Positions 5,448 through 54,965 are shown, counted from the first letter of the stretch. The stretch is 64,000 nucleotides of DNA from a virus (IMGVR_UViG_3300028048_000071:32001-96000); one strand, 5' to 3'. Made by a program: numbers and translations. Notes: generated by a model not told the origin, from the sequence alone.

Positions 5448-6035
5448 GTGATGACAATTTACTTAGACTTTGACAACACTATAGTTGAAAGTAATAAGAG
5501 AATAATAGATATGTTAAATAAAAAATATGGTACATCTAAAACCGAGGATGATTTGTTTGATTATAATTATAATTCTATTTATCCGATTAGTGAAAAAGAA
5601 AAACTTCAAATGTTTGAAAGTGAAGAGTTTTATAATGGATTAGAATTTAAGACCGGGGTTTTAGATGTTTTAAATAAATATAGTCAGTCTTATAATATTG
5701 TTATACTAAGTATTGGTACTGAAGAAAACTTAAGAAGAAAACAAGATTGGTTGAAAAACAACTTACCTTACGACTTTAAATTTATTGGGTTTGATGGAAA
5801 ATCAAAAAAGAAGAGCCGTATAAATATGGATAATGCTATTCAAATAGACGATAATTTTGATTGTTTAAAAACTAATGCTGCTTTAAAAATATTATATAAA
5901 AGTTTTCATAACTTTCCTTGGCAAGAACCGACTTCTAGTGAAGAATTTATGGTGGTGAATACTTGGGAAGAAATAGATTCAATTTTAGATTTTTATAAAA
6001 AGTATAATTGTAAAACATTAGAGAAAATAAGGTAA
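5448..6035 (+). CDS. HAD-family 5'(3')-deoxyribonucleotidase
   Basis: motif I IYLDFDNT, motif IV IDD, FPW; NT5C-like. Confidence 0.75.
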   Translation: MMTIYLDFDNTIVESNKRIIDMLNKKYGTSKTEDDLFDYNYNSIYPISEKEKLQMFESEEFYNGLEFKTGVLDVLNKYSQSYNIVILSIGTEENLRRKQDWLKNNLPYDFKFIGFDGKSKKKSRINMDNAIQIDDNFDCLKTNAALKILYKSFHNFPWQEPTSSEEFMVVNTWEEIDSILDFYKKYNCKTLEKIR

Positions 6036-11738: not shown

Positions 11739-13504
11739 TGGCAGTAAATATAAAAAAAGTTAGAAAGGGTGTAGAAGCTCAAAAATCTTGGGGATATGAT
11801 AACACTGATTCTCCATTGAGTTATGACCCTATTAATGAAGAAAAAATTGATTATGAAGAATGGACTAAATTCTTATCATACTATAGATATTATGTTGATG
11901 AATTTGCTGTAGACATATTAGGAATGACTAATTTGTTCCCATTTCAAAGACTTTTATTAAGAGCAATGGGAAAATTTCCAAACATAATGTTTATAATGTG
12001 TAGAGGTTTAACAAAATCATATATTGCTGCAATATTTATTTGTTGTATGGCTATCTTATATCCAGGTATGGCAATAGGAATTGTTTCTGGAAATGGTAAC
12101 CAAGCAAGAATGGTTGTTAAACAGAAAATAGAAGGGGAATTATGTAAAAACGAAAATATTAAAAGAGAAATTAAAAGTATAAAAACAAGTTTAGATGATT
12201 GTATTGTTACTTTTAAAAATGGAAGCTCAATAAGGGCTTTTACTTTGGGTAACAATCAAAAAGGAGATAGTTCAAGAGGTTGGAGATTTCAACTTATATT
12301 AGTTGATGAAGCTCGTCTAGTTAAAACAGAAGCATTAAAAGAAGTTTTAATACCAATGACTAAAACTCCAAGAACTAATGCAATAGATTTAAAAAAGAAA
12401 TTTCCAGAGGCTCCTTATGAAGAAGGACGAATGGTTTATATTTCATCTGCTTGGTTAAAAACTTGTGATTTATATCAAAGATTCTTAAATTTCTATAGTC
12501 AAATGACTTCGGGTGATAAAAACTATTTTGTTGCAAGTCTTGATTATAGAGTAGGTATAGATGCTGGATTATTTACAGAAGAAAATATGATGTTAGAAAA
12601 AAATGACCCAGAGATGACTTTAGATAAATGGGCTTATGAATATGAAGGTCGATTTGTTGGAAGTGCAAATGATAGTTATTATCCATATGATATAACTTCA
12701 AAATGTAGGTCATTAGATAGATGCGAATTAGAACAACCTAAAAAATGTCAATATAGATATATTGTAACGCACGACGTTGCTGTATCTGGTAAATCAGGTT
12801 CGGATAATTCCTGTACTCACGTTATAAAATTAATACCTAAAAAAAATGGTACTTTTACAAAACAAGTTGTTTTTACAAAAACAATGAATGGGGCTACTTT
12901 AAAAGAACAAAGAGATTTCTTAAGAGAGCTTATTCATATTAGATTTCCTAATACGGATAAATTAGTAATAGATGCTCAATCTGCTGGACAGGGTTTATTA
13001 TCATTGTTAGAAGAACCTTGGACTGCAAGAAATAATAGAGGAGAAGTAGAAGAGTTCCCTCCATTAATTTGTGATGACGATGAAGAAGCACAGATACTAT
13101 TACCGGATGCTGAACCTCTAATAAGAGGAATAACTGCAACACAAGAATTTAACAGCACTTTTTATCCATATATGAAAAGTGGTTTTGAAGATAGAAGTCT
13201 ACAATTATTGGTAGATAGTAGTGAAACAGATGAAGCATATAAGAGTGGTAAATATAGACCAGAAGAACAGGTAGTTCACGTTGAGCACGATAGCTTAGTT
13301 CAAGAATTAAGTAATATAAAACAATCATATTCTGAAGGTGGTAAAATAATTTATACCAGAATAGTTAAAAGTAAAAAAAGAGACCGTGCAACAAGTTTAA
13401 TGTATGGTTTATCTGTTGTTTGGGAATATGAAAAACAAGGAAAAGCAGATATGTATAAAAAAGAGGTAGACCCTCTTGCATATTTAAAAAAATATATATA
13501 TTAA
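11738..13504 (+). CDS. terL: terminase large subunit
   Basis: LFPFQ adenine motif, degenerate Walker A CRGLTKS, Walker B LVDEA, YISSA coupling motif, nuclease HDVA...KRDRATS. Confidence 0.9.
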   Translation: MAVNIKKVRKGVEAQKSWGYDNTDSPLSYDPINEEKIDYEEWTKFLSYYRYYVDEFAVDILGMTNLFPFQRLLLRAMGKFPNIMFIMCRGLTKSYIAAIFICCMAILYPGMAIGIVSGNGNQARMVVKQKIEGELCKNENIKREIKSIKTSLDDCIVTFKNGSSIRAFTLGNNQKGDSSRGWRFQLILVDEARLVKTEALKEVLIPMTKTPRTNAIDLKKKFPEAPYEEGRMVYISSAWLKTCDLYQRFLNFYSQMTSGDKNYFVASLDYRVGIDAGLFTEENMMLEKNDPEMTLDKWAYEYEGRFVGSANDSYYPYDITSKCRSLDRCELEQPKKCQYRYIVTHDVAVSGKSGSDNSCTHVIKLIPKKNGTFTKQVVFTKTMNGATLKEQRDFLRELIHIRFPNTDKLVIDAQSAGQGLLSLLEEPWTARNNRGEVEEFPPLICDDDEEAQILLPDAEPLIRGITATQEFNSTFYPYMKSGFEDRSLQLLVDSSETDEAYKSGKYRPEEQVVHVEHDSLVQELSNIKQSYSEGGKIIYTRIVKSKKRDRATSLMYGLSVVWEYEKQGKADMYKKEVDPLAYLKKYIY

Positions 13505-47792: not shown

Positions 47793-50027
47793 ATGGCTAC
47801 AGTTAAGTTTTATAATGATAAAGAAAAAACTCAACAAGTATATCCAGAAATTGACCCAGATGGAAATTATCCTGGTGTCACAGTTGGACTTGCCAATAAC
47901 CTTGTTTCACCAGACGGTATAAATGATATAGATACTTGGCAATATCGTTCAACTGGTGGAGAACTTGATATTACTGATGGATATGCAACATTAAAGAAAC
48001 TTATTGGTACAACTGAATCTTCAACTATAGAAGAAAGTCTAACACATAACTTAATTACAACTGGTGTAACTTCTGTAACTGTTGATACAAGTACATTTAA
48101 AAGTCAAATAAGTACAAGTGGAACATATAATTTTATATATACTCCAACAATTACTTATTCATCTGCTTTAGTATATTCATTAAATAAAAGCACTTTTGCT
48201 AATTATGTAAGTCAAGCAACTGGAACATATACATTTACTTATACTGCTGTTGTTTCACCAGTAGATACATCTAGTGTTATACAAACTTTTACACAATCAA
48301 CATTTGTTAACAAAGTAAATGAAACACCAGATACTTATACATTTACATATAATGGTTCAAATTGGCAATTAGATGGAACAAACGTAACAATGAGTCAATA
48401 TGGTATTACAACAAAAGGAACTGAAACAAGTGGAACAACAATTACTGTTTATTATACAAGTAATTCTTGGTATTACAATAATGCCTCAATTTCTATGAGT
48501 AATTATGGTATTTCAACAACTGGCTCTGAATCTGTTGGAGACACAATTGCTATATCTTATACATCTAATGACTGGATGTTAAATAACACTGCAATAACAC
48601 TTGCTGATTACGGAATTGTAATTACAGGAGGAACTGCAGCAATTGACGATAATATTCAAATAATATTTATTGCTGAACAAGTAGGTGTAATTCAAACTGC
48701 AAATCCAACTGGATTATATAGTGTTGGAATGAACCAATTTAATAAAGATGGTTCTCAAATATTTAGAAATTATACATTAAATTCATCTGGTGGAATAAGT
48801 GCGGCAACTGGATATTATGTAATTTATTTTAAATGTATAGGAGGAGAAACTTATACTATTTATAATGAAACACCTTCATCTACTGTTAGAGTTGGTTATA
48901 GTGCAACTATCCCAACTACATCAAGCACTGTTACATTATTAAGTACAGTTTCATCATCTGAATGGGCTGATGTTCTAGTTAATGACTCATATAAATCACA
49001 CTATTATCCAAATAATCCTGGATATTTAGTTGTTGCGACAAGTGACATTGAAAATTTATGTTGTCATTTAACTTGGGAAGCAGTAAAGGATGATGTATAT
49101 GAATCTTATTTTAATTATACATTACCTATTCCATACACTGATAAAAATGGAGATGTAATAACAACTTATGGTTTAGTAAACTTAGATGATGGTACTCAAT
49201 ATTATGATGAAATAAATTTTGAAGACCTTAAATGGTATAAGAGAACAACTAGAATTGAATATAGTGCTGAAAACTTGGCAACTGTTCAAGCATTAGGTGT
49301 TCCATATTTATATGATGCAAATTGGATTTATTATGGTGTTAATACAGTTGAATATAACTTAGAAGACGTTTCTTATTCATATGAAATATCAAACTATGGT
49401 ACTGAAGAGTTTATTAACTCTGCATTGCCATTAACTGCAACAATATTCTATCAAGAAAACTTAAGAGATAAAATAAGATTCTCTATGGAAGTTATTGATA
49501 ATAAAGTTGAGAAAATTGATAGTGCTTCTACTTATACAAAATATTCAAGTGCAAAAGCATCTTATAACCTAGATAAAGCATTAAGACATATACTTGGTCT
49601 TGATGTAGATACATTCTCAACAAGCAGCACTTATGCTGTTGGTGATTATGTTGTATACGATGGTAAATTGTGGAAATGTACCACTGCCGTAACAAGTGCA
49701 GGAGCTTGGACTGGTAATGGATTATCTGTTAGAAGTAATAATAATGGAATATTACTTGATATGGACACAACTAAATTTTTAAAATTCTTAGATTCAGATA
49801 GACCTGGAAGTCCTTGTGGAATTCCTGAACTTTATGCAAATGATGGCGGTACATACCAAATTCATTTAACATATGCAACAACATCAAACGATTATCACTT
49901 CGCTAATGCTGCTGAATTAGAAGAACAAACTGGTCTTGTAGTAAGTAGTGCAACTGGTGGAGTATCATTTAGTTATAATAGTTCTTCTGCAAATTGGGAA
50001 GAATCATATTTATTTAAAGCAAATTAA
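47793..50027 (+). CDS. large tail fibre/baseplate protein with C-terminal CBM5/12-like module
   Basis: internal W...T/SMS.YGI repeats; STYAVGDYVVYDGKLWKC; last gene before cassette array. Confidence 0.72.
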   Translation: MATVKFYNDKEKTQQVYPEIDPDGNYPGVTVGLANNLVSPDGINDIDTWQYRSTGGELDITDGYATLKKLIGTTESSTIEESLTHNLITTGVTSVTVDTSTFKSQISTSGTYNFIYTPTITYSSALVYSLNKSTFANYVSQATGTYTFTYTAVVSPVDTSSVIQTFTQSTFVNKVNETPDTYTFTYNGSNWQLDGTNVTMSQYGITTKGTETSGTTITVYYTSNSWYYNNASISMSNYGISTTGSESVGDTIAISYTSNDWMLNNTAITLADYGIVITGGTAAIDDNIQIIFIAEQVGVIQTANPTGLYSVGMNQFNKDGSQIFRNYTLNSSGGISAATGYYVIYFKCIGGETYTIYNETPSSTVRVGYSATIPTTSSTVTLLSTVSSSEWADVLVNDSYKSHYYPNNPGYLVVATSDIENLCCHLTWEAVKDDVYESYFNYTLPIPYTDKNGDVITTYGLVNLDDGTQYYDEINFEDLKWYKRTTRIEYSAENLATVQALGVPYLYDANWIYYGVNTVEYNLEDVSYSYEISNYGTEEFINSALPLTATIFYQENLRDKIRFSMEVIDNKVEKIDSASTYTKYSSAKASYNLDKALRHILGLDVDTFSTSSTYAVGDYVVYDGKLWKCTTAVTSAGAWTGNGLSVRSNNNGILLDMDTTKFLKFLDSDRPGSPCGIPELYANDGGTYQIHLTYATTSNDYHFANAAELEEQTGLVVSSATGGVSFSYNSSSANWEESYLFKAN

Positions 50028-50049
50028 TGAATGAAAGGAGAATAATTTT

Positions 50050-50211
50050 ATGTTAGAAATAATTAAATCATTCTTCTCCCCTGTAGGGGGGGGCGAACAA
50101 GCTTCGCTTCACAGAATGGAAATATACAAAGGAAGGAGGATTTGCGTCAAGAGTATAGTAACTCTTCAAGCAATTCCGACTTCAATAGAAAGAGAGGTGA
50201 AGAGTATCTAA
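50050..50211 (+). CDS. leader peptide 1 of cassette-selection bank (53 aa in current G8 state; not in ORF track)
   Basis: GAAAGGAG SD; MLEIIKSFFSPV-GGG-EQ...EVKSI*; one extra G fuses it to the 50142-50486 frame. Confidence 0.8.
   Translation: MLEIIKSFFSPVGGGEQASLHRMEIYKGRRICVKSIVTLQAIPTSIEREVKSI
50086..50093 (+). repeat. poly-G tract 1 (G8), candidate phase-variable switch
   Basis: G8 after codon 12 of leader 1 in an AT-rich genome. Confidence 0.9.
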
Positions 50212-50291
50212 AATCTTCTTATGGAAGATTTGCAGATGGAAGCAACGCTTCTGTCTTAATCTCTTCATCTTTCGCAAGTGAAAATATCGTA

Positions 50292-50300
50292 GGGGGGGGG
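50292..50300 (+). repeat. poly-G tract 2 (G9)
   Basis: GTA-GGGGGGGGG-C in frame in extended leader. Confidence 0.9.
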
Positions 50301-50426
50301 CAGCTACGCTCGAATAATTATTCAGCAAGCAGTCGCTCTTATAAAGGAGGTGAAGGCAATTACGCTAGCTTAATGTCTAGTGATTTTGCCGGAACCGAGA
50401 CAATGTTAAACCCTGACCGCATAGTC

Positions 50427-50435
50427 GGGGGGGGG
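50427..50435 (+). repeat. poly-G tract 3 (G9)
   Basis: GTC-GGGGGGGGG-C in frame in extended leader. Confidence 0.9.
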
Positions 50436-50582
50436 CGAAATCCATTTGGATTCGTCTTCAAAGAAAGGGGGCAAGCCACTATTTAGACTTGCCTCTTATA
50501 CACGAAATGATTTCTCTTTCAAGAAGGGAGGTGCAGGCTTAACAGTCTGTACTCCTTTTTATTATGAAGGAGGTGTGTGTTA

Positions 50583-50966
50583 ATGCAAATTAATAAAGAC
50601 CTTATTATTAGTGGAACTAATATGACTTTAGGCGATACAGCCTATAAAGATATATATTCAACAACTGAAACCAAGACTAATAAGGTTTGGATTGATGGTC
50701 GTACTATATATAGAAAGGTTATTACTGGAAATTTATCTCAGGCACAATGGAATCACGGAATAACTTTTGATACTATTGTTTCTATAGAAGGTGTTTTTAT
50801 AAATACTAATTCTGGTAATACATTTAATATACCTAGTACAAGACCTGATTTTCCTGATTATCAAGTTGGTGTATTTGTGAATAATACATTTATAACTTTA
50901 GAACGTGCTACTGGTGCTCAACGTGCGGATATGAGTTTTTATGTAGTTTTAGAATATGTGAAATAA
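50583..50966 (+). CDS. cassette 1: tail-tip/receptor-binding module
   Basis: MQINKDL N-terminus; YSTTETKTNKVWIDGRTIYRKV fibre-tip domain; own SD AAGGAGGTG. Confidence 0.75.
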   Translation: MQINKDLIISGTNMTLGDTAYKDIYSTTETKTNKVWIDGRTIYRKVITGNLSQAQWNHGITFDTIVSIEGVFINTNSGNTFNIPSTRPDFPDYQVGVFVNNTFITLERATGAQRADMSFYVVLEYVK

Positions 50967-50995
50967 CACACACAACAGGCTAACAGCCTAACATT

Positions 50996-51403
50996 ATGGC
51001 TAAATTTACAATTAATAAAGACTTCTTTGTAGGTGATACAAATTATTCTTTAGAGGATATTCCTTTTGGAGTAGAACCCGAAGTCCCATCTAATCAAAAT
51101 TATTTTAAATTTGGGAATATGATGATTTGTTGGGGTTGGAGAAACGTAACTTTAAACTGGAATGGGAATGGAGCTTATGCTGATTTTAATTTAGCAAACG
51201 ATGGAACTCCATATAAAGATACTGCATATAGAATTGTTGGGAGTTATGCTGGAAGCACAGCTTATTATGCAGGAAACTGGTGCTGGTTTGAAAGCAAAGG
51301 GACGACAAGTGCAAGAGTAAATTGCTGGTGTGAACAAGCTAATAAACCAACATCTATTATTATAGGTTTTATAGCCATTGGAAGATGGCGTGATGCTGAA
51401 TAA
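50996..51403 (+). CDS. cassette 2: gp53-C-like tail-tip module
   Basis: TINKDF N-terminus; YFKFGNMMICWG...FIAIGRW; no local SD. Confidence 0.72.
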   Translation: MAKFTINKDFFVGDTNYSLEDIPFGVEPEVPSNQNYFKFGNMMICWGWRNVTLNWNGNGAYADFNLANDGTPYKDTAYRIVGSYAGSTAYYAGNWCWFESKGTTSARVNCWCEQANKPTSIIIGFIAIGRWRDAE

Positions 51404-51439
51404 AAACATTTCGTGATGAGCAAGCCTTTTGGCGAACTT

Positions 51440-51850
51440 ATGAAGATTAATAAAGATTTAATCGTAGAGGGTACAAATCATACATTAGAAGATATACCTT
51501 TTGATATTGATTTATCTGATGTGTATTCTACAAATGAAACAAAAACAAATAAGGTTTGGATAGATAACAGACCTATATATAGAAGAGTCGTTACCGGTAC
51601 AGTTACCGCTGCAGGTCAAGGACAAACTGTAACCACTATAAGTAATATAAGACAAATCTTGACTATAAGAGGAGTTATGTATTCTAATTATGGTCAATGG
51701 TGGAATATTCCTAATTATCACGGAGAAGCAGGATATGTAAATTCCATATACTGCGATGCAAATGGAAGAGTCAATTTAGGAGTTGGGAACTTTTATAGTG
51801 CCGGTAAACCTTTTATAATTATTTTAGAGTATACAAAATCTACTGACTAA
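51440..51850 (+). CDS. cassette 3: tail-tip module (paralogue of cassette 1)
   Basis: MKINKDL start at 51440; YSTNETKTNKVWIDNRPIYRRV...LEYTK; no local SD. Confidence 0.75.
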   Translation: MKINKDLIVEGTNHTLEDIPFDIDLSDVYSTNETKTNKVWIDNRPIYRRVVTGTVTAAGQGQTVTTISNIRQILTIRGVMYSNYGQWWNIPNYHGEAGYVNSIYCDANGRVNLGVGNFYSAGKPFIIILEYTKSTD

Positions 51851-51886
51851 CATTGTCTGAACGGCAAAAAAAATAATGCCGATTCT

Positions 51887-52309
51887 ATGAAAATAAACAA
51901 AGACTTAATTATTAGTGATACAAATTATACTTTAGGAGATGTTGCTGATTTTATATCAAATAAAATAGAAATTAAAGAGCTTGCTTCTACAACAGGAAGT
52001 GGCGAAAACATTACAATAGATTTGACCGATAGTTATAAAAATTATGACTTTTTATTAGTTCAATGGAGTCCATATTCTTTATATGGGAATATTGATTTTT
52101 ATATTATAGATACTGCTACAATTTTATCTACACAATATGGAAATTATCCTTATGAAACCGGACACCTTCAAACAACATCAGTATGGTCAAATGTCGTATT
52201 TGGCTTTTCATCAACAACTAGATTTATAGCTAAATGTGCAAATACAGGAACTTGGGGAAAAGGTTCTTTTAAAATAATTTCTATTAAAGGAATAAAATTA
52301 CCTCACTAA
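51887..52309 (+). CDS. cassette 4: tail-tip module
   Basis: MKINKDL N-terminus; LTDSYKNYDFLLV...IKGIK; no local SD. Confidence 0.72.
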   Translation: MKINKDLIISDTNYTLGDVADFISNKIEIKELASTTGSGENITIDLTDSYKNYDFLLVQWSPYSLYGNIDFYIIDTATILSTQYGNYPYETGHLQTTSVWSNVVFGFSSTTRFIAKCANTGTWGKGSFKIISIKGIKLPH

Positions 52310-52354
52310 TCACATAATAGAGCGACCGCTCGTAAATGAGCAAAAGCGAATTAA

Positions 52355-52732
52355 ATGATTATAAACACAGATTTAATCTACCCTATCGGTAGTATATATT
52401 TAAGCGTCAACGCAACCAATCCGTCAAAGTATTTTGGCGGAGCTTGGGAGCAAATTACATCAGACGCATATTTAAAGATAGTAACTCAAAATGCTGGTTC
52501 TTTAGGTGGAACCAGTGTAGACCACAAGATACCTATTGAAAGTATGCCTAGTCACGACCACGGTGTGTACGGAGCATTAACTGGAGAAAATAAACCTATT
52601 ACCAATACTGGTAATGATTGGGGAGTTAATACAACACACGGATGGACTACAAATGCCATTTCAAAGACTGGCGGTGGACAGGCTTACTATCCTTATTACT
52701 ATGGCGTTTATGTTTGGAAAAGAACTGCTTAA
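52355..52732 (+). CDS. cassette 5: gp10-C/tail-collar-like module
   Basis: MIINTDL-IYPIGSIY...FGGAWE...MPSHDH...VYVWKRTA; no local SD. Confidence 0.78.
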   Translation: MIINTDLIYPIGSIYLSVNATNPSKYFGGAWEQITSDAYLKIVTQNAGSLGGTSVDHKIPIESMPSHDHGVYGALTGENKPITNTGNDWGVNTTHGWTTNAISKTGGGQAYYPYYYGVYVWKRTA

Positions 52733-52775
52733 ATATACTCTCTTATGATGTTTTGAAGATTTAGATACAAATCTT

Positions 52776-53165
52776 ATGATTATAAATACAAATATGTTGT
52801 TAGCAGCCTATCCTGTAGGTTCGCTATATTTAACAACAAATGAAATAAACCCAGGAACCTTATTTGGTGGAACCTGGGAAAAATTGACTGGGGATGCTTA
52901 TCTTAAAATAGTGACAAGTAATCCTGGTCAATATGATGGTACGTCAGACCAACATAAAATACCTATCAATAGTATGCCTTCTCACAGACACGGTAATAGA
53001 GTTACTTTAAATATGTCTCAAGGTGCTGGTCAAGATAGAAGCCTTGTAGTTGGTGGAGGTCAAGTATGGAATACTGCGGACAATTATCAAAATCAATTTG
53101 TTGGTGGTGGACAACCTTATTATCCATATTATTATGGTATTTATGTTTGGAGACGTACAGCATAA
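52776..53165 (+). CDS. cassette 6: gp10-C/tail-collar-like module
   Basis: MIINTNML-AYPVGSLY...FGGTWE...MPSHRH...WRRTA; no local SD. Confidence 0.78.
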   Translation: MIINTNMLLAAYPVGSLYLTTNEINPGTLFGGTWEKLTGDAYLKIVTSNPGQYDGTSDQHKIPINSMPSHRHGNRVTLNMSQGAGQDRSLVVGGGQVWNTADNYQNQFVGGGQPYYPYYYGIYVWRRTA

Positions 53166-53193
53166 TCGGAATTGCTTAATGCAATAAAACTTT

Positions 53194-53367
53194 ATGAAAA
53201 ATATTTTATTAAATAAAATCCTTCACATCGGGGGGGGGCAGAAATGTCTGCTCTTCACAAGAAAGGAGGGTTGGCTATTATTTTGTAACGTCAACTCTTC
53301 AAGGAATGGAGGTGGCAGACATTTAATATCTGCTATCTCTTGTGGAGGTGTAATCTTATGCAAATAA
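53194..53367 (+). CDS. leader peptide 2 (57 aa in current G9 state; not in ORF track)
   Basis: MKNILLNKILHI-GGG-QK...ILCK*; no local SD; stop lies just inside cassette 7 start. Confidence 0.72.
   Translation: MKNILLNKILHIGGGQKCLLFTRKEGWLLFCNVNSSRNGGGRHLISAISCGGVILCK
53230..53238 (+). repeat. poly-G tract 4 (G9)
   Basis: ATC-GGGGGGGGG-C after codon 12 of leader 2. Confidence 0.9.
53230..53361 (+). promoter_or_regulatory. RBS bank 2: three SD modules
   Basis: AAAGGAGGG 53262, GGAGGTG 53308, GGAGGTG 53344; first two in hairpins without a cassette ATG. Confidence 0.8.
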
Positions 53368-53750
53368 ACGTAGATTTAATATATCCTATAGGTTCTTTAT
53401 ATTTAACAACGTCTACTGTATCACCAGCAGTTTTGTTTGGTGGTACTTGGGAACGCATTAAAGGTAGATGTATTGTAGGTGTAGACGAAAATGACACCGA
53501 CTTTAATACTGTTAGTAAAACCGGCGGTGAAAAAACACATACATTGACTGTGGATGAAATGCCAGCACACAATCACAATATTCAAGGTGCGATGAATGGT
53601 GCTTCTGGAAGTAGTTGGTGTGTTGCTTTAAATAGTGATAGAAGCGTAAACTGGTCTATCACTAATGGGTCACAAAATAAAGGTGGTGGACAAGCACATA
53701 ACAATCTACAACCTTATTACACTGCTTATATATGGCGAAGAACCGCATAA
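53358..53750 (+). CDS. cassette 7: gp10-C/tail-collar-like module
   Basis: MQINVDL-IYPIGSLY...GGEKTHTLT..EMPAHNH...AHNNLQPY...WRRTA; own SD. Confidence 0.8.
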   Translation: MQINVDLIYPIGSLYLTTSTVSPAVLFGGTWERIKGRCIVGVDENDTDFNTVSKTGGEKTHTLTVDEMPAHNHNIQGAMNGASGSSWCVALNSDRSVNWSITNGSQNKGGGQAHNNLQPYYTAYIWRRTA

Positions 53751-53781
53751 GATTACTTAGATATTAAATTGTCGAATAATT

Positions 53782-54159
53782 ATGAAAATAAACTTAGATT
53801 TTATATATCCTGTTGGAAGTATTTATATGAGTGTTAATGCTACAAATCCAGGAATTTTATTTGGAGGAACTTGGACTCAATTAAAAGATAGGTTCTTACT
53901 TGGTGCTGGAAATACATATTCCGCTGGAGATACTGGTGGAGAGGCAACTCATACGTTAACTTATAATGAAATGCCTCAACATAGTCACACATTGTATAAT
54001 GAAAATGCAAGTGGATGGACTTTAAGTAAAGCATCTTTAAAAACAGGAACAAATAAAGGATATTCTGGTAATATCCAAATTGGAGATGCTGGAGGTAATC
54101 AAGCACATAATAATATGCCTCCATATCTAGTAGTCTATATGTGGAAAAGAACTGCATAA
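53782..54159 (+). CDS. cassette 8: gp10-C/tail-collar-like module
   Basis: MKINLDF-IYPVGSIY...GGEATHTLT..EMPQHSH...WKRTA; no local SD. Confidence 0.8.
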   Translation: MKINLDFIYPVGSIYMSVNATNPGILFGGTWTQLKDRFLLGAGNTYSAGDTGGEATHTLTYNEMPQHSHTLYNENASGWTLSKASLKTGTNKGYSGNIQIGDAGGNQAHNNMPPYLVVYMWKRTA

Positions 54160-54205
54160 ATTATTTTGACAAAAAGAGTTGACACTAAAATAATAGTGTT
54201 ATAAT

Positions 54206-54634
54206 ATGAAAATAAATGAAGATTTAATAATTAATGGAACGGATTTAAATTTAAATGATATAGTACAAAAAATATCGGCACTTGAAAAATATCAAGTAGA
54301 ATATAATGCTGATTCAATTACTTTGACATTTACAAATAAATATCCTTGTATAGCAATTACATATATGTCTCACGCAGGATGGGGATTTGGAGGAAATGAA
54401 TGGATTTGGAATGCTGATTTAACTAATTCTGTTCATTTAGGTTATACTAAAGCCTATGTTAATGGTAATGACTTATTATCAAGATTTATGAGTTCTGTGT
54501 CAATTAACTATTGTCCAACTGCGGGAGTAGAACATACAACTGTAAGAACTACAACCAAGGGTAACTCTGGTAATAGCAATGGACAATCAGTATGTGTTAT
54601 TTGTTTACCATTAATAACTAATTCAAAAGAATAA
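54206..54634 (+). CDS. cassette 9: tail-tip module of a different type
   Basis: MKINEDLIINGT N-terminus shared with cassettes 1,3,4; no local SD. Confidence 0.68.
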   Translation: MKINEDLIINGTDLNLNDIVQKISALEKYQVEYNADSITLTFTNKYPCIAITYMSHAGWGFGGNEWIWNADLTNSVHLGYTKAYVNGNDLLSRFMSSVSINYCPTAGVEHTTVRTTTKGNSGNSNGQSVCVICLPLITNSKE

Positions 54635-54656
54635 TTATAAGAAATAGAGTAAAATG

Positions 54657-54701
54657 AAAGGGGAATAACTTAACTAAAATTTTTGTTATTTCCTTTTTTT
54701 T
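54657..54701 (+). terminator. intrinsic terminator ending the late/cassette operon
   Basis: AAAGGGGAATAAC...GTTATTTCCTTT then T run. Confidence 0.7.
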
Positions 54702-54706
54702 ACCGC

Positions 54707-54735
54707 TTGACATTATCTTCTTTTTGTGCTATAAT
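54707..54735 (+). promoter_or_regulatory. sigma-A promoter for modification/replication operon
   Basis: perfect TTGACA-17 bp-TATAAT with extended TG. Confidence 0.88.
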
Positions 54736-54794
54736 GCAATTACAATAGAAGGGAGATAATGTGAGGAGACAATACAAGAAGGGGTGAAACAACA

Positions 54795-54965
54795 ATGAAG
54801 AAATATTTATTGTATTTATTACGATGGCAATTGTCTACTCCAATTTTAGCTATTGTTTTATATATATTCAAAACAAATGAAATTTTAGAAACCATAATAG
54901 CCAATTTAATTGGTGGTCTAATTTTCTTTTGGGTTGATAAATGGATATTTAAAGAAAAGAGGTGA
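54795..54965 (+). CDS. small membrane protein (56 aa; not in ORF track)
   Basis: GGGGTGA SD; MKKYLLYLLRWQLSTPIL...ANLIGGLIFFWVDKWIF. Confidence 0.7.
   Translation: MKKYLLYLLRWQLSTPILAIVLYIFKTNEILETIIANLIGGLIFFWVDKWIFKEKR

What the first reader, a model, noticed from the sequence alone, without database searches (positions are those of the whole stretch)
50133..53193. Nested long-range complementarity joins each orphan SD module in bank 1 to the spacer before one specific distant start codon
SEEN reverse-complement pairs. Leader 2: AAGCAATTCCGA 50168-79 / 53166-77 (12 bp perfect) plus TTGCGT 50142-47 / 53179-84. Cassette 6: GTATCTAAAATCTTC 50204-18 / GAAGATTTAGATAC 52755-68 (one bulge) plus AAAATATCGTAGGGGGG 50281-97 / 52738-54 (17 bp with G-U). 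Cassette 5: GTCGCTCT 50332-39 / 52319-26. Cassette 4: GGCAATTA 50355-62 / 51874-80, TTTTGCCG 50384-91 / 51862-69, AGACAATGTTA 50398-408 / 51848-58 (11 bp perfect). Cassette 3: GCCA 50475-78 / 51430-33, CTTGCCTC 50488-95 / 51418-24, CACGAAATG 50501-09 / 51407-15. Cassette 2: AGGCT 50535-39 / 50985-89, AGTCTGT 50544-50 / 50975-81, GTGTGTGTTA 50573-82 / 50964-73. The order is nested (5'-most module pairs with the most distant spacer), so the helices can coexist and loop out whole genes. The helix nearest each SD ends 6-9 nt before the partner AUG. INFERENCE: a split ribosome-binding site, with SD and AUG up to about 3 kb apart brought together by structure. Several G-U pairs argue for RNA rather than DNA pairing.
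Basis: partly seen in the sequence, partly recalled or inferred. Interest (0 to 1): 0.93.

Follow-up and report, generated by a model that had tools for sequence, protein, structure and literature searches.

The report
Long-range RNA addresses for tail-tip genes
In a complete 133-kb gut phage, each spare ribosome-binding sequence stacked in a short leader is base-complementary to the spacer before one distant receptor-binding gene that has none of its own; this conserved arrangement was not found in the literature searched, and with slippery G-runs it probably lets the phage translate one of nine alternative tail tips.

Summary
All six spacers pair best with their own module of bank 1, in strictly nested order. 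Cognate duplexes are -21 to -30 kcal/mol; non-cognate ones are -5 to -18. The summed longest Watson-Crick runs lie 6.5 SD above shuffles.

The same plan recurs in ten related phage loci from four lineages (tail-fibre identity 55-92%). The helix sequences differ between lineages, and two lineages use a (CAAT)n repeat instead of a poly-G tract.

Targeted starts have no Shine-Dalgarno (SD) sequence. A relative without a bank has strong SDs on all seven downstream genes.

Most modules are predicted to fold as a hairpin that hides the SD and holds one leader-frame stop codon in its loop. An anchor helix starts 10-33 nt past that stop.

After each G-run one frame reads on and two frames stop, each in a different module. 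Assemblies differ in G-run length and occupy five selector states.

My reading: the helices tether masked SD modules to SD-less starts. A leader ribosome that terminates in a module opens it and switches on the tethered cassette.

The helices are well supported. The mechanism is inferred; there are no RNA or protein data. The G-U argument is not supported. I found no published description. The scan's earlier notes on this design concern this same genome only.

The parts
47793..50027 (+). Tail-fibre gene (744 aa, CBM_5_12 domain) just upstream of the bank; used as the marker to find related loci
   Evidence: ORF list; Pfam; homologues
50050..50211 (+). Leader ORF 1 as assembled. It has its own strong SD at about 50036-43, runs into poly-G 1, and in this assembly (8 G) stops at TAA 50209 inside the c6 module.
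   Evidence: Frame map; SD strength -12.7 kcal/mol
50086..50093 (+). Poly-G tract 1 (8 G), the first three-way frame switch
   Evidence: The only four G/C runs of 7 or more in the 132,932-bp, 28.5% GC genome are the four tracts in the banks.
50129..50180 (+). Module addressed to leader 2. SD 50129-39; strands 50142-47 and 50168-79; stops TAG 50156 and TAA 50159 in the loop of a local hairpin (50149-54/50161-66).
   Evidence: Pairs with 53166-77 and 53179-84.
50190..50297 (+). Module addressed to cassette 6. SD 50192-97; stop TAA 50209; strands 50204-18 and 50281-97. The SD is paired with 50261-71 in the predicted local fold.
   Evidence: Pairs with 52755-68 and 52738-54.
50292..50300 (+). Poly-G tract 2 (9 G), the second switch. 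It also overlaps the 3' end of the c6 anchor strand and is the only SD-like element of the c5 module.
50301..50339 (+). Module addressed to cassette 5. Stop TAA 50315; strand 50332-39 (extends to 50329 with one A-C mismatch).
   Evidence: Pairs with 52319-26.
50343..50408 (+). Module addressed to cassette 4. SD 50346-50; stop TAA 50371 in a hairpin loop; strands 50355-62, 50384-91 and anchor 50398-408.
   Evidence: Pairs with 51874-80, 51862-69 and 51848-58.
50427..50435 (+). Poly-G tract 3 (9 G), the third switch
50460..50509 (+). Module addressed to cassette 3. SD-like GGGGG 50467-71; stop TAG 50484 in a hairpin loop; strands 50475-78, 50488-95 and anchor 50501-09.
   Evidence: Pairs with 51430-33, 51418-24 and 51407-15.
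50520..50582 (+). Module addressed to cassette 2, plus the start region of cassette 1. SD 50526-31; stop TAA 50540 in a hairpin loop; strands 50535-39, 50544-50 and anchor 50573-82. The c1 SD (50566-75) is masked by 50552-58. TAA 50581 overlaps the c1 ATG 50583.
   Evidence: Pairs with 50985-89, 50975-81 and 50964-73.
50583..50966 (+). Cassette 1 (127 aa). It has its own SD and is reached by direct stop-start overlap.
50964..50995 (+). Address spacer before cassette 2 (ATG 50996, no SD). The anchor partner starts on the stop codon of cassette 1.
51401..51439 (+). Address spacer before cassette 3 (ATG 51440, no SD)
51848..51886 (+). Address spacer before cassette 4 (ATG 51887, no SD). The anchor partner starts on the stop codon of cassette 3.
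52307..52354 (+). Address spacer before cassette 5 (ATG 52355, no SD)
52730..52775 (+). Address spacer before cassette 6 (ATG 52776, no SD)
53163..53193 (+). Address spacer before leader 2 (ATG 53194, no SD)
53194..53357 (+). Bank 2. Leader ORF 2; poly-G 4 (53230-38, 9 G); the c9 module (stop TAA 53286; strands 53274-85 and 53290-99); the c8 module (stop TAA 53324; strand 53321-32); and the SD of c7.
53358..54634 (+). Cassettes 7, 8 and 9 (53358-53750, 53782-54159, 54206-54634) with address spacers 53748-81 and 54157-205. Only c7 has an SD.
54651..54700 (+). Hairpin plus T-run that reads as an intrinsic terminator and would close the fibre/bank/cassette unit. A consensus promoter follows at 54707-35. 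The terminator scan did not list this hairpin.
   Evidence: Read directly from the sequence; a weak Rfam 3'-UTR-like hit over the hairpin; the 12/12 promoter match

Best explanation
The complementary segments are RNA 'address' helices on one polycistronic mRNA that carries the fibre gene, the leader bank and the cassettes.

Each bank module is a hairpin. Its 5' arm is an SD, its 3' arm is a pyrimidine anti-SD, and its loop holds the first stop codon of one leader reading frame. Just downstream, an anchor strand pairs with the spacer that follows the stop codon of the previous cassette. This tethers the module to one SD-less AUG that lies 0.4-3 kb away.

Slippage of the poly-G tracts during replication sets the leader frame. 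After each tract one frame reads on to the next tract and two frames stop, each in a different module. That gives 2n+1 exits for n tracts.

The leader ribosome that terminates in a module has melted its hairpin, while the anchor lies just beyond its leading edge. The freed SD strand, the proximal strands and probably the terminating ribosome itself then act on the tethered AUG. In that state the SD ends 2-7 nt before the helix and the AUG lies 5-11 nt after it. This is a split ribosome-binding site used for coupled re-initiation.

Modules not reached by the ribosome stay masked. The result is one tail-tip protein per selector state.

Shown: the helices, their specificity and conservation; the SD-less starts; the frame tree; and G-run length differences between assemblies. 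Predicted by folding: the SD-masking hairpins with the stop in the loop. Inferred: hairpin opening by the terminating ribosome, hand-over to the distant AUG, and exclusivity.
For: Independent helix sets with the same nested plan occur in four other loci:
- L004: six perfect runs of 10-14 bp, sum 73 against 44.2 +/- 2.5, with a diagonal 6x6 matrix.
- L006: the c4 and c5 helices are replaced by different sequences.
- L134: a 21-bp helix plus 10-12-bp helices in two banks, with (CAAT)8 as the switch.
- L137.

Paired changes that keep pairing:
- The bank-2 c8 helix has T:A in the window and C:G in L006.
- G-U becomes A-U between L004 and L002.
- G-U becomes G-C between the window and L001/L006.

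In all five bank-bearing loci tested, SD-less starts are confined to addressed cassettes. The bank-less relative L136 has SDs of -11.7 to -13.8 kcal/mol on all 7 downstream genes.

The frame tree is conserved in W, L001, L006, L007 and L004. Each exit stop lies 10-24 nt after an SD-like element and before or within the strands of a different unit.

The stop lies in the apical loop of a hairpin closed by at least 4 bp for 13 of 20 exits, against 92 of 400 random stop triplets.

The cofold ground state has the SD masked in 8 of 9 modules, 7 of them with the anchor also formed.

Unconstrained MFE folds of the whole 3.1-3.3 kb RNA contain 4 of 6 (W), 2 of 6 (L004) and 4-5 of 6 (L006) anchors.

Near-identical banks differ only in G-run length: L002 9/8/8, L003 9/8/10, L004 9/8/9. 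These select c2, c3 and c1. Across all assemblies five states are seen.

The four G-runs are the only G/C runs of 7 or more in the genome.
Against: There are no RNA-structure, ribosome-profiling or proteomic data.

Ribosomes bound for later exits also pass through and melt the earlier modules. Exclusivity therefore needs an extra assumption: that termination, not transit, triggers initiation.

Some helices are short (c5 here is 8 bp; c5 of L137 is 8 bp). L001 has lost the SD of its c3 module.

One cofold (L004 module 7) shows no intermolecular pairs. The whole-RNA MFE of L004 recovers only 2 of 6 anchors.

Kilobase-range pairing must win against co-transcriptional local folding.

Bacterial termination-reinitiation is reported to need overlapping or very close stop and start codons (title of PMC10666635). 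A hand-over across a helix has no precedent.

Only four lineages give independent helix sets, and alignment-based covariation counts were spoiled by misalignment.
Confidence: 0.6

Rival explanations
1. Constitutive split ribosome-binding sites. The helices alone bring each orphan SD next to its AUG, every addressed cassette is translated all the time, and leader translation plays no part.
For: The distances from SD to helix and from helix to AUG are right. The targets lack SDs. The leader-2 module is predicted to form the extended duplex with a free SD.
Against: 8 of 9 modules are predicted to hide the SD in a local hairpin. This reading does not explain why one leader-frame stop sits in each hairpin loop. 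It does not explain why the number of targets equals 2n+1 for n tracts. It does not explain why the only long G-runs of the genome lie in the leader. The c5-type modules have no GGAGG.
Confidence: 0.12
2. Repressive masks of the MS2 Min Jou type. The helices sequester the cassette start regions, and leader ribosomes passing over the bank strands release them.
For: The bank strands lie inside leader reading frames. The anchor partners overlap the previous cassette's stop codon and the region upstream of the AUG. The starts of c1 and c7 are paired with their own 3' flanks.
Against: The released starts would still have no SD, so the orphan SDs would have no role. The proximal helix ends 5-11 nt before the AUG and leaves the AUG itself free. 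The through-frame would release every cassette at once, which makes the elaborate stop placement pointless.
Confidence: 0.12
3. Processing or stability stalks. Like the stems that flank rRNA genes, the nested helices are double-strand RNase substrates or protective structures that cut the operon mRNA into units.
For: Coaxial helix stacks total about 20-30 bp and loop out whole genes. This recalls rRNA processing stalks (general knowledge).
Against: It explains neither the SDs next to each strand, nor the SD-less starts, nor the stops in the loops, nor the link with repeat tracts. Individual helices are short and interrupted.
Confidence: 0.05
4. DNA-level function or by-product. The inverted repeats are recombination or inversion sites, or scars of cassette shuffling.
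For: Cassettes are clearly exchanged between phages and leave 3' remnants in the spacers. The genome has one tyrosine recombinase.
Against: Each repeat pair is unique, so there is no common crossover site. All cassettes point the same way, and none of ten loci shows an inversion. Inverting between a pair would not join an SD to its cassette. There is no serine invertase and no reverse transcriptase. The recombinase lies about 76 kb away. Address sequences stay with the slot when the cassette changes.
Confidence: 0.03

Closest known systems
Split ribosome-binding sites: phage T4 genes 38 and 25 (recalled from the literature, not re-read) and E. coli thrS (Sacerdot et al., as described in PMC3936740)
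   Same: The SD and the start codon are separated by a structured insert, and folding restores a workable distance. Here the SD ends 2-7 nt before the helix and the AUG lies 5-11 nt after it.
   Different: Known cases have one local hairpin of tens of nucleotides at one gene. Here the insert is 0.4-3 kb of whole genes. There are 6+2 sites per operon, each with its own address, and the SD is predicted to be masked until a leader ribosome arrives.
Long-range translational coupling in ssRNA phages (MS2 Min Jou interaction; Q-beta, PMC2978339)
   Same: Kilobase-scale base pairing between a translated upstream region and a downstream start region, so that upstream ribosomes decide downstream initiation.
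   Different: In those phages the pairing represses a complete ribosome-binding site and any upstream translation relieves it. Here the targets have no SD, the upstream strand carries it, and many orthogonal pairs are nested.
Leader-peptide phase variation of the Streptococcus gallolyticus pil1 pilus operon (PMC3894217)
   Same: A short repeat tract inside a leader ORF changes the frame and so the point where the leader ribosome stops. That decides expression of downstream genes.
   Different: pil1 is an on/off switch that works through a transcription terminator. Here there are seven plus three outputs, no general terminator after the modules, and long-range helices that choose the output.
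Hypermutable poly-G tracts in receptor-binding genes of Campylobacter phages, and phage contingency loci (PMC10877375, bioRxiv 10.1101/2025.10.21.683753)
   Same: Slippage-prone repeat tracts give a phage population mixed receptor-binding phenotypes. G-run lengths differ between assemblies here too.
   Different: Those tracts lie inside the coding sequence and switch one protein on or off. Here they lie in a non-structural leader and route translation among separate genes.
Ribosome shunting on the cauliflower mosaic virus 35S leader (recalled knowledge)
   Same: A short ORF ends just before the base of a stable stem, and the ribosome resumes at a site on the far side of the stem. Here exit stops lie 10-33 nt before an anchor strand, and the AUG lies beyond the partner strand.
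   Different: That is a eukaryotic scanning mechanism with one stem and one landing site. Whether a bacterial ribosome is handed over at all is untested here.
Invertible tail-fibre segments (Mu G / P1 C) and shufflons
   Same: Alternative receptor-binding ends are encoded side by side and chosen stochastically.
   Different: Those use a site-specific recombinase, common crossover sites and oppositely oriented cassettes. None of these features is present here.

Membership tests
Split ribosome-binding site (T4 gene 38/25, thrS type) | SD and start codon too far apart in sequence but brought to a workable distance by a helix between them | tested here: met
   In GGAGG-type modules of W, L004, L006, L001 and L007, the SD ends 2-7 nt before the proximal helix and the partner ends 5-11 nt before the AUG. 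This rests on predicted pairing only.
Split ribosome-binding site (T4 gene 38/25, thrS type) | The intervening structure is a local hairpin or domain of one 5' UTR | tested here: not met
   The intervening loops are 0.4-3 kb and contain whole cassettes.
Split ribosome-binding site (T4 gene 38/25, thrS type) | The ribosome shown to initiate on the folded form | not testable with these tools
   This needs toeprinting, reporters or structure work.
MS2-type long-range translational coupling | The upstream strand lies in a translated ORF, so that ribosomes disrupt the pairing | tested here: met
   All bank strands lie within one or more open leader frames.
MS2-type long-range translational coupling | The pairing masks a complete downstream ribosome-binding site (SD plus AUG) | tested here: not met
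   The targets have no SD (+1.4 to -2.9 kcal/mol) in W, L004, L006, L134 and L137. The AUG is left unpaired 5-11 nt beyond the helix.
Leader-peptide repeat-tract phase variation (pil1 type) | A slippage-prone repeat inside a short leader ORF upstream of the regulated genes | tested here: met
   Poly-G tracts of 8-11, or (CAAT)3-8, lie in the leader ORFs. Lengths differ between near-identical loci.
Leader-peptide repeat-tract phase variation (pil1 type) | The read-out works through a premature intrinsic terminator destabilised by the leader ribosome | tested here: not met
   Only the two overlapping hairpins at the c2/c1 end of the bank (50530-53 and 50552-72) are followed by a T-run. The other modules have none.
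Poly-G contingency loci in phage receptor-binding genes (Campylobacter phage type) | The tract lies inside the coding sequence of the structural gene it switches | tested here: not met
   All four tracts lie in the leaders. No G/C run of 7 or more occurs anywhere else in the genome.
Recombinase-driven tail-fibre switching (Gin/Cin invertases, shufflons) | A serine invertase or Rci-type recombinase next to the cassettes | tested here: not met
   There is no resolvase/invertase domain in the complete genome. The single tyrosine recombinase lies about 76 kb away.
Recombinase-driven tail-fibre switching (Gin/Cin invertases, shufflons) | Shared crossover repeats and cassettes in opposite orientations, with inverted isomers in populations | tested here: not met
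   Each repeat pair is unique. All cassettes are on the + strand in ten loci, with no inverted isomer.
Diversity-generating retroelement | A reverse transcriptase with template and variable repeats | tested here: not met
   There is no RVT_1 match in the genome.
Any curated RNA family (Rfam 15) | A match at or above the gathering score | tested here: not met
   Only four sub-threshold chance hits in 49800-54800.

The most novel reading that the evidence does not exclude
This is a bacterial 'ribosome router'. A ribosome that terminates a leader ORF at one of 2n+1 frame-selected stops is handed across a kilobase-range address helix to an SD-less start codon, while the SD stays behind in the leader. 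One mRNA therefore works as a heritable, reversible 1-of-9 translational multiplexer for receptor-binding proteins, with no recombinase and no transcriptional control. It would be the first prokaryotic analogue of ribosome shunting, and the first natural example of orthogonal RNA 'addresses' used to route translation.
Probability: 0.4. Interest if true: 0.95.

Novelty: categorically new. Interest (0 to 1): 0.9.

Why it matters
If the mechanism holds, it adds a new way for a virus to vary host recognition. Translation is routed among ready-made genes, and the choice is set by repeat-tract slippage and read out through RNA addresses. No DNA rearrangement or mutagenesis is involved.

It would also stretch two textbook limits. 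The first is how far an SD can lie from its start codon. The second is how far a terminating bacterial ribosome can be coupled to a new start.

The parts are short, orthogonal and modular. Four lineages use different address sets and two kinds of repeat. That makes the idea directly testable with reporters. It is also attractive as a design for programmable polycistronic expression and for phages with switchable host range.

For genome annotation, it explains arrays of SD-less tail-tip genes behind 'non-coding' G-rich leaders in gut phages.

Tried and rejected
- RNAduplex of single spacers against the whole 556-nt bank gave only modest z-scores (-1.4 to -4.0), because long internal loops inflate the background. 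I replaced it with longest-run sums, order tests and a module matrix.
- Counting interruptions of the helices gave too few events. Extending helices with G-U against A-C gave no preference for G-U (934 against 1099 extra paired positions). The strand and RNA argument from wobble pairs is therefore dropped.
- Alignment-based classification of each W helix in L001, L006 and L007 was spoiled by shifted spacer alignments. It gave 214 unchanged, 20 one-sided, 5 double and 51 'broken' positions, many of the last being artefacts. I rely on de novo detection in each locus instead.
- There is no close relative among deposited phage genomes; the best hit covered 4% of the query. There is no Rfam family.
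I therefore could not check G-run heterogeneity at read level, RNA ends or joints.
After filtering, it returned unrelated elements only.
- L010 looked like a switch-less relative, but its fibre gene is truncated and followed by unrelated genes, so it tells nothing. L135 is fragmented by what looks like another genetic code and was not analysed.
- Transcription attenuation as the read-out was considered and set aside, because only the two overlapping hairpins at the c2/c1 end of the bank have a T-run.
- Six literature searches found no description of orphan SDs paired to distant starts, or of a multi-output leader switch in phages.

Full report
**What is there.** The window is part of a complete 132,932-bp virus record with 28.5% GC. 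All genes in this region lie on the + strand. A 744-aa tail-fibre gene (47793-50027, CBM_5_12 domain) comes first, followed by a 556-nt 'bank' (50028-50582). After the bank come six small cassettes of 125-140 aa, a second bank of 164 nt (53194-53357) and three more cassettes. Four cassettes carry the Gp10_C tip domain. The others have no family, and nearly all nine begin with a shared short peptide. A hairpin with a T-run (54651-54700), read from the sequence rather than listed by the terminator scan, and a consensus promoter (54707-35) mark the end of the unit.

**The observation.**
- The longest perfect complementary runs between the six spacers and bank 1 are 10, 9, 11, 8, 9 and 12 bp.
- Their sum is 59, against 42.2 +/- 2.6 for shuffled spacers and 42.9 +/- 2.5 for random pieces of the window. 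None of 400 trials exceeded 54.
- The six bank positions fall strictly in nested order.
- In a matrix of six spacers against six modules, cognate duplexes are -21.3 to -30.3 kcal/mol and non-cognate ones -4.8 to -18.0. The cognate pair is the minimum of every row and every column.
- Bank 2 repeats the design for cassettes 8 and 9, with 12-bp, 12-bp and 10-bp helices.
- One detail failed. The G-U argument for RNA is not supported, because allowing A-C 'pairs' extends the helices just as much.

**Conservation with different sequences.** The fibre protein was used as a marker. It brought in ten loci that carry the bank and the array.
- L004 (75% fibre identity) has three G-runs and seven cassettes. 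Its six spacers match its bank with perfect runs of 14, 14, 11, 13, 10 and 11 bp (sum 73 against 44.2 +/- 2.5). The order is again strictly nested and the matrix again diagonal. None of the helix sequences resembles those of the window.
- L006 (81%) keeps some window helices but has different complementary pairs for c4 and c5.
- L134 (55%) and L137 (63%) use a (CAAT)n repeat as the first switch, and their address sets are unrelated again. L134 has a 21-bp helix to its second leader and perfect helices of 10 and 12 bp in its second bank.
- Among close relatives, some changes keep pairing. The c8 helix has T:A in the window and C:G in L006. G-U becomes A-U between L004 and L002. G-U becomes G-C opposite 50142-47.
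- When a cassette is replaced, the address stays with the slot. A remnant of the old cassette's 3' end is sometimes left in front of it.

**Why the helices concern translation.**
- The targeted starts have no SD. The duplex with the 16S tail is +1.4 to -2.5 kcal/mol for c2-c6, leader 2, c8 and c9. It is -16.2, -13.1 and -12.7 for c1, c7 and leader 1, and the genome median is -10.1.
- The same split is seen in L004, L006, L134 and L137. The related locus L136 has no bank, and all seven downstream genes there have SDs of -11.7 to -13.8.
- In modules with a GGAGG-type SD, the SD ends 2-7 nt before the proximal helix and the partner strand ends 5-11 nt before the AUG. This holds across lineages.

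- The four G-runs (8, 9, 9 and 9 G) are the only G/C runs of 7 or more in the genome.
- A leader ORF with its own SD runs into the first one.
- After each run, one frame stays open to the next run and two frames stop. Each stop lies 10-24 nt after an SD-like element and before or within the strands addressed to a different unit.
- Three runs give seven exits for six cassettes plus leader 2. One run in bank 2 gives three exits for three cassettes. L004 has three runs and seven cassettes, L134 has 1+1 switches and five cassettes, and L137 has five cassettes.
- Near-identical banks differ only in run length (L002 9/8/8, L003 9/8/10, L004 9/8/9). Across all loci the assembled states select c1, c2, c3, c6 or leader 2. 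The window itself is in the c6 state.

**Module structure.**
- Folding 43 nt around each exit stop puts the stop in the apical loop of a hairpin closed by at least 4 bp in 13 of 20 cases. Four more differ only by a 1-bp closure. The figure for random stop triplets is 92 of 400.
- The 5' arm of the hairpin is the SD and the 3' arm is a pyrimidine stretch.
- In cofolds of module plus spacer, the SD is paired locally in 8 of 9 modules, and 7 of those 8 also form the distal anchor helix.
- Unconstrained MFE folds of the whole 3.1-3.3-kb RNA contain 4 of 6, 2 of 6 and 4-5 of 6 anchors.
- The anchor strands begin 10-33 nt after the exit stop, about at the leading edge of a terminating ribosome. In the c6 module the distance is 72 nt. 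Their partners begin 0-9 nt after the previous cassette's stop codon.

**Mechanism proposed.** The anchors tether each masked SD module to one SD-less start. The repeat tracts set the leader frame, and the frame sets where the leader ribosome terminates. Termination inside a module opens its hairpin. The freed SD, and perhaps the same ribosome, then initiates at the tethered AUG. This is a split site used for coupled re-initiation. It explains the stop in each loop, the 2n+1 rule, the SD-less starts and the masking of c1 and c7.

It leaves one point open: why modules that are only traversed stay silent. Rivals, with my odds:
- a constitutive split site (0.12)
- a repressive mask of the MS2 type (0.12)
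- RNase processing stalks (0.05)
- a DNA-level role (0.03)

The DNA-level role is disfavoured for several reasons. Each repeat pair is unique. No inversion is seen in ten loci. There is no invertase and no reverse transcriptase, and the one integrase lies about 76 kb away.

**Novelty.** Six literature searches found no description. The nearest known elements each share one feature:
- split ribosome-binding sites (thrS via PMC3936740; T4 genes 38 and 25 from memory)
- MS2/Q-beta long-range coupling
- pil1 leader-peptide phase variation (PMC3894217)
- poly-G contingency loci in phages
- termination-reinitiation (PMC6728339)
- the CaMV shunt (from memory)

None combines orphan SDs, orthogonal kilobase-range addresses and a multi-output frame tree. 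Earlier notes of this scan on the same genome proposed the frame tree, the SD-less starts and the stop-in-hairpin rule. I tested these here and they hold. A note on another genome reported a (GAAC)n leader switch before phage tip genes, which fits the (CAAT)n variants found here.

**Limits.** All evidence is computational. Four lineages give independent address sets. Some helices are short. Structure predictions at the 3-kb scale are weak evidence. Read-level and RNA data could not be obtained.

Noticed in passing
L134:9387-9421 and L137:9369-9380: In two more distant relatives, the first frame switch of the leader is a tetranucleotide repeat, (CAAT)8 and (CAAT)3, instead of a poly-G tract. 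Later switches are still G-runs. The design therefore does not depend on the kind of repeat.
   Followed up: partly
L006:11699-11724, 12608-12632, 13039-13063; L001 about 5765-5790: A small hairpin element of about 25 nt (it starts GGATGC and ends GTGTCC, with a variable middle) is inserted in three address spacers of L006 and in the bank of L001. It lies next to the helices but not inside them. It may be a miniature mobile hairpin or a protein or RNase site.
   Followed up: no
L001:8688-8740; L002:14012-14063; L006:14445-14486: Remnants of the 3' end of a different Gp10_C-type cassette lie between a cassette's stop and the address sequence. Cassettes are therefore replaced by recombination while the slot's address is kept.
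   Followed up: partly
window 50210-50257: The window has a 48-nt insertion in the loop of the c6 module that L001 and L007 lack. Its first bases lengthen the complementarity to the c6 spacer, and the rest forms two extra local hairpins.
   Followed up: partly
window 50371-50375 (also L001, L007; L004:12987-12991): The exit stop of the c4 branch overlaps an ATG (TAATG) that re-enters the through-frame towards poly-G 3. Ribosomes leaving at this exit could therefore restart in the trunk. This is not present in all lineages.
   Followed up: no
L001:5912-5990: The c3 module of L001 has lost its SD-like G-run and hairpin, replaced by other sequence. It keeps the 9-bp anchor, so it may be a decayed or differently used slot.
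   Followed up: no
P0073 (779 aa): One fibre homologue carries a Gp10_C domain in the same polypeptide. This suggests that in some relatives the tip is fused to the fibre rather than encoded as a separate cassette.
   Followed up: no
L068:1-700; L077; L107; L124: Unrelated viral contigs carry three to five G8-G11 tracts within a few hundred bases, each inside or at the start of short ORFs in what look like DNA-modification or nucleotide-metabolism genes. This is possibly another multi-tract contingency system.
   Followed up: no
L135:9300-9910: The relative with 44% fibre identity has Gp10_C-like tip genes interrupted by in-frame TGA codons (for example within a conserved GGTW-like motif). That suggests a TGA-recoded genetic code rather than broken genes.
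   Followed up: no
window 54166-54207: The spacer before cassette 9 contains near-consensus -35 and -10 hexamers that overlap its two address strands. I took this as coincidence, but an internal promoter for c9 is not excluded.
   Followed up: no
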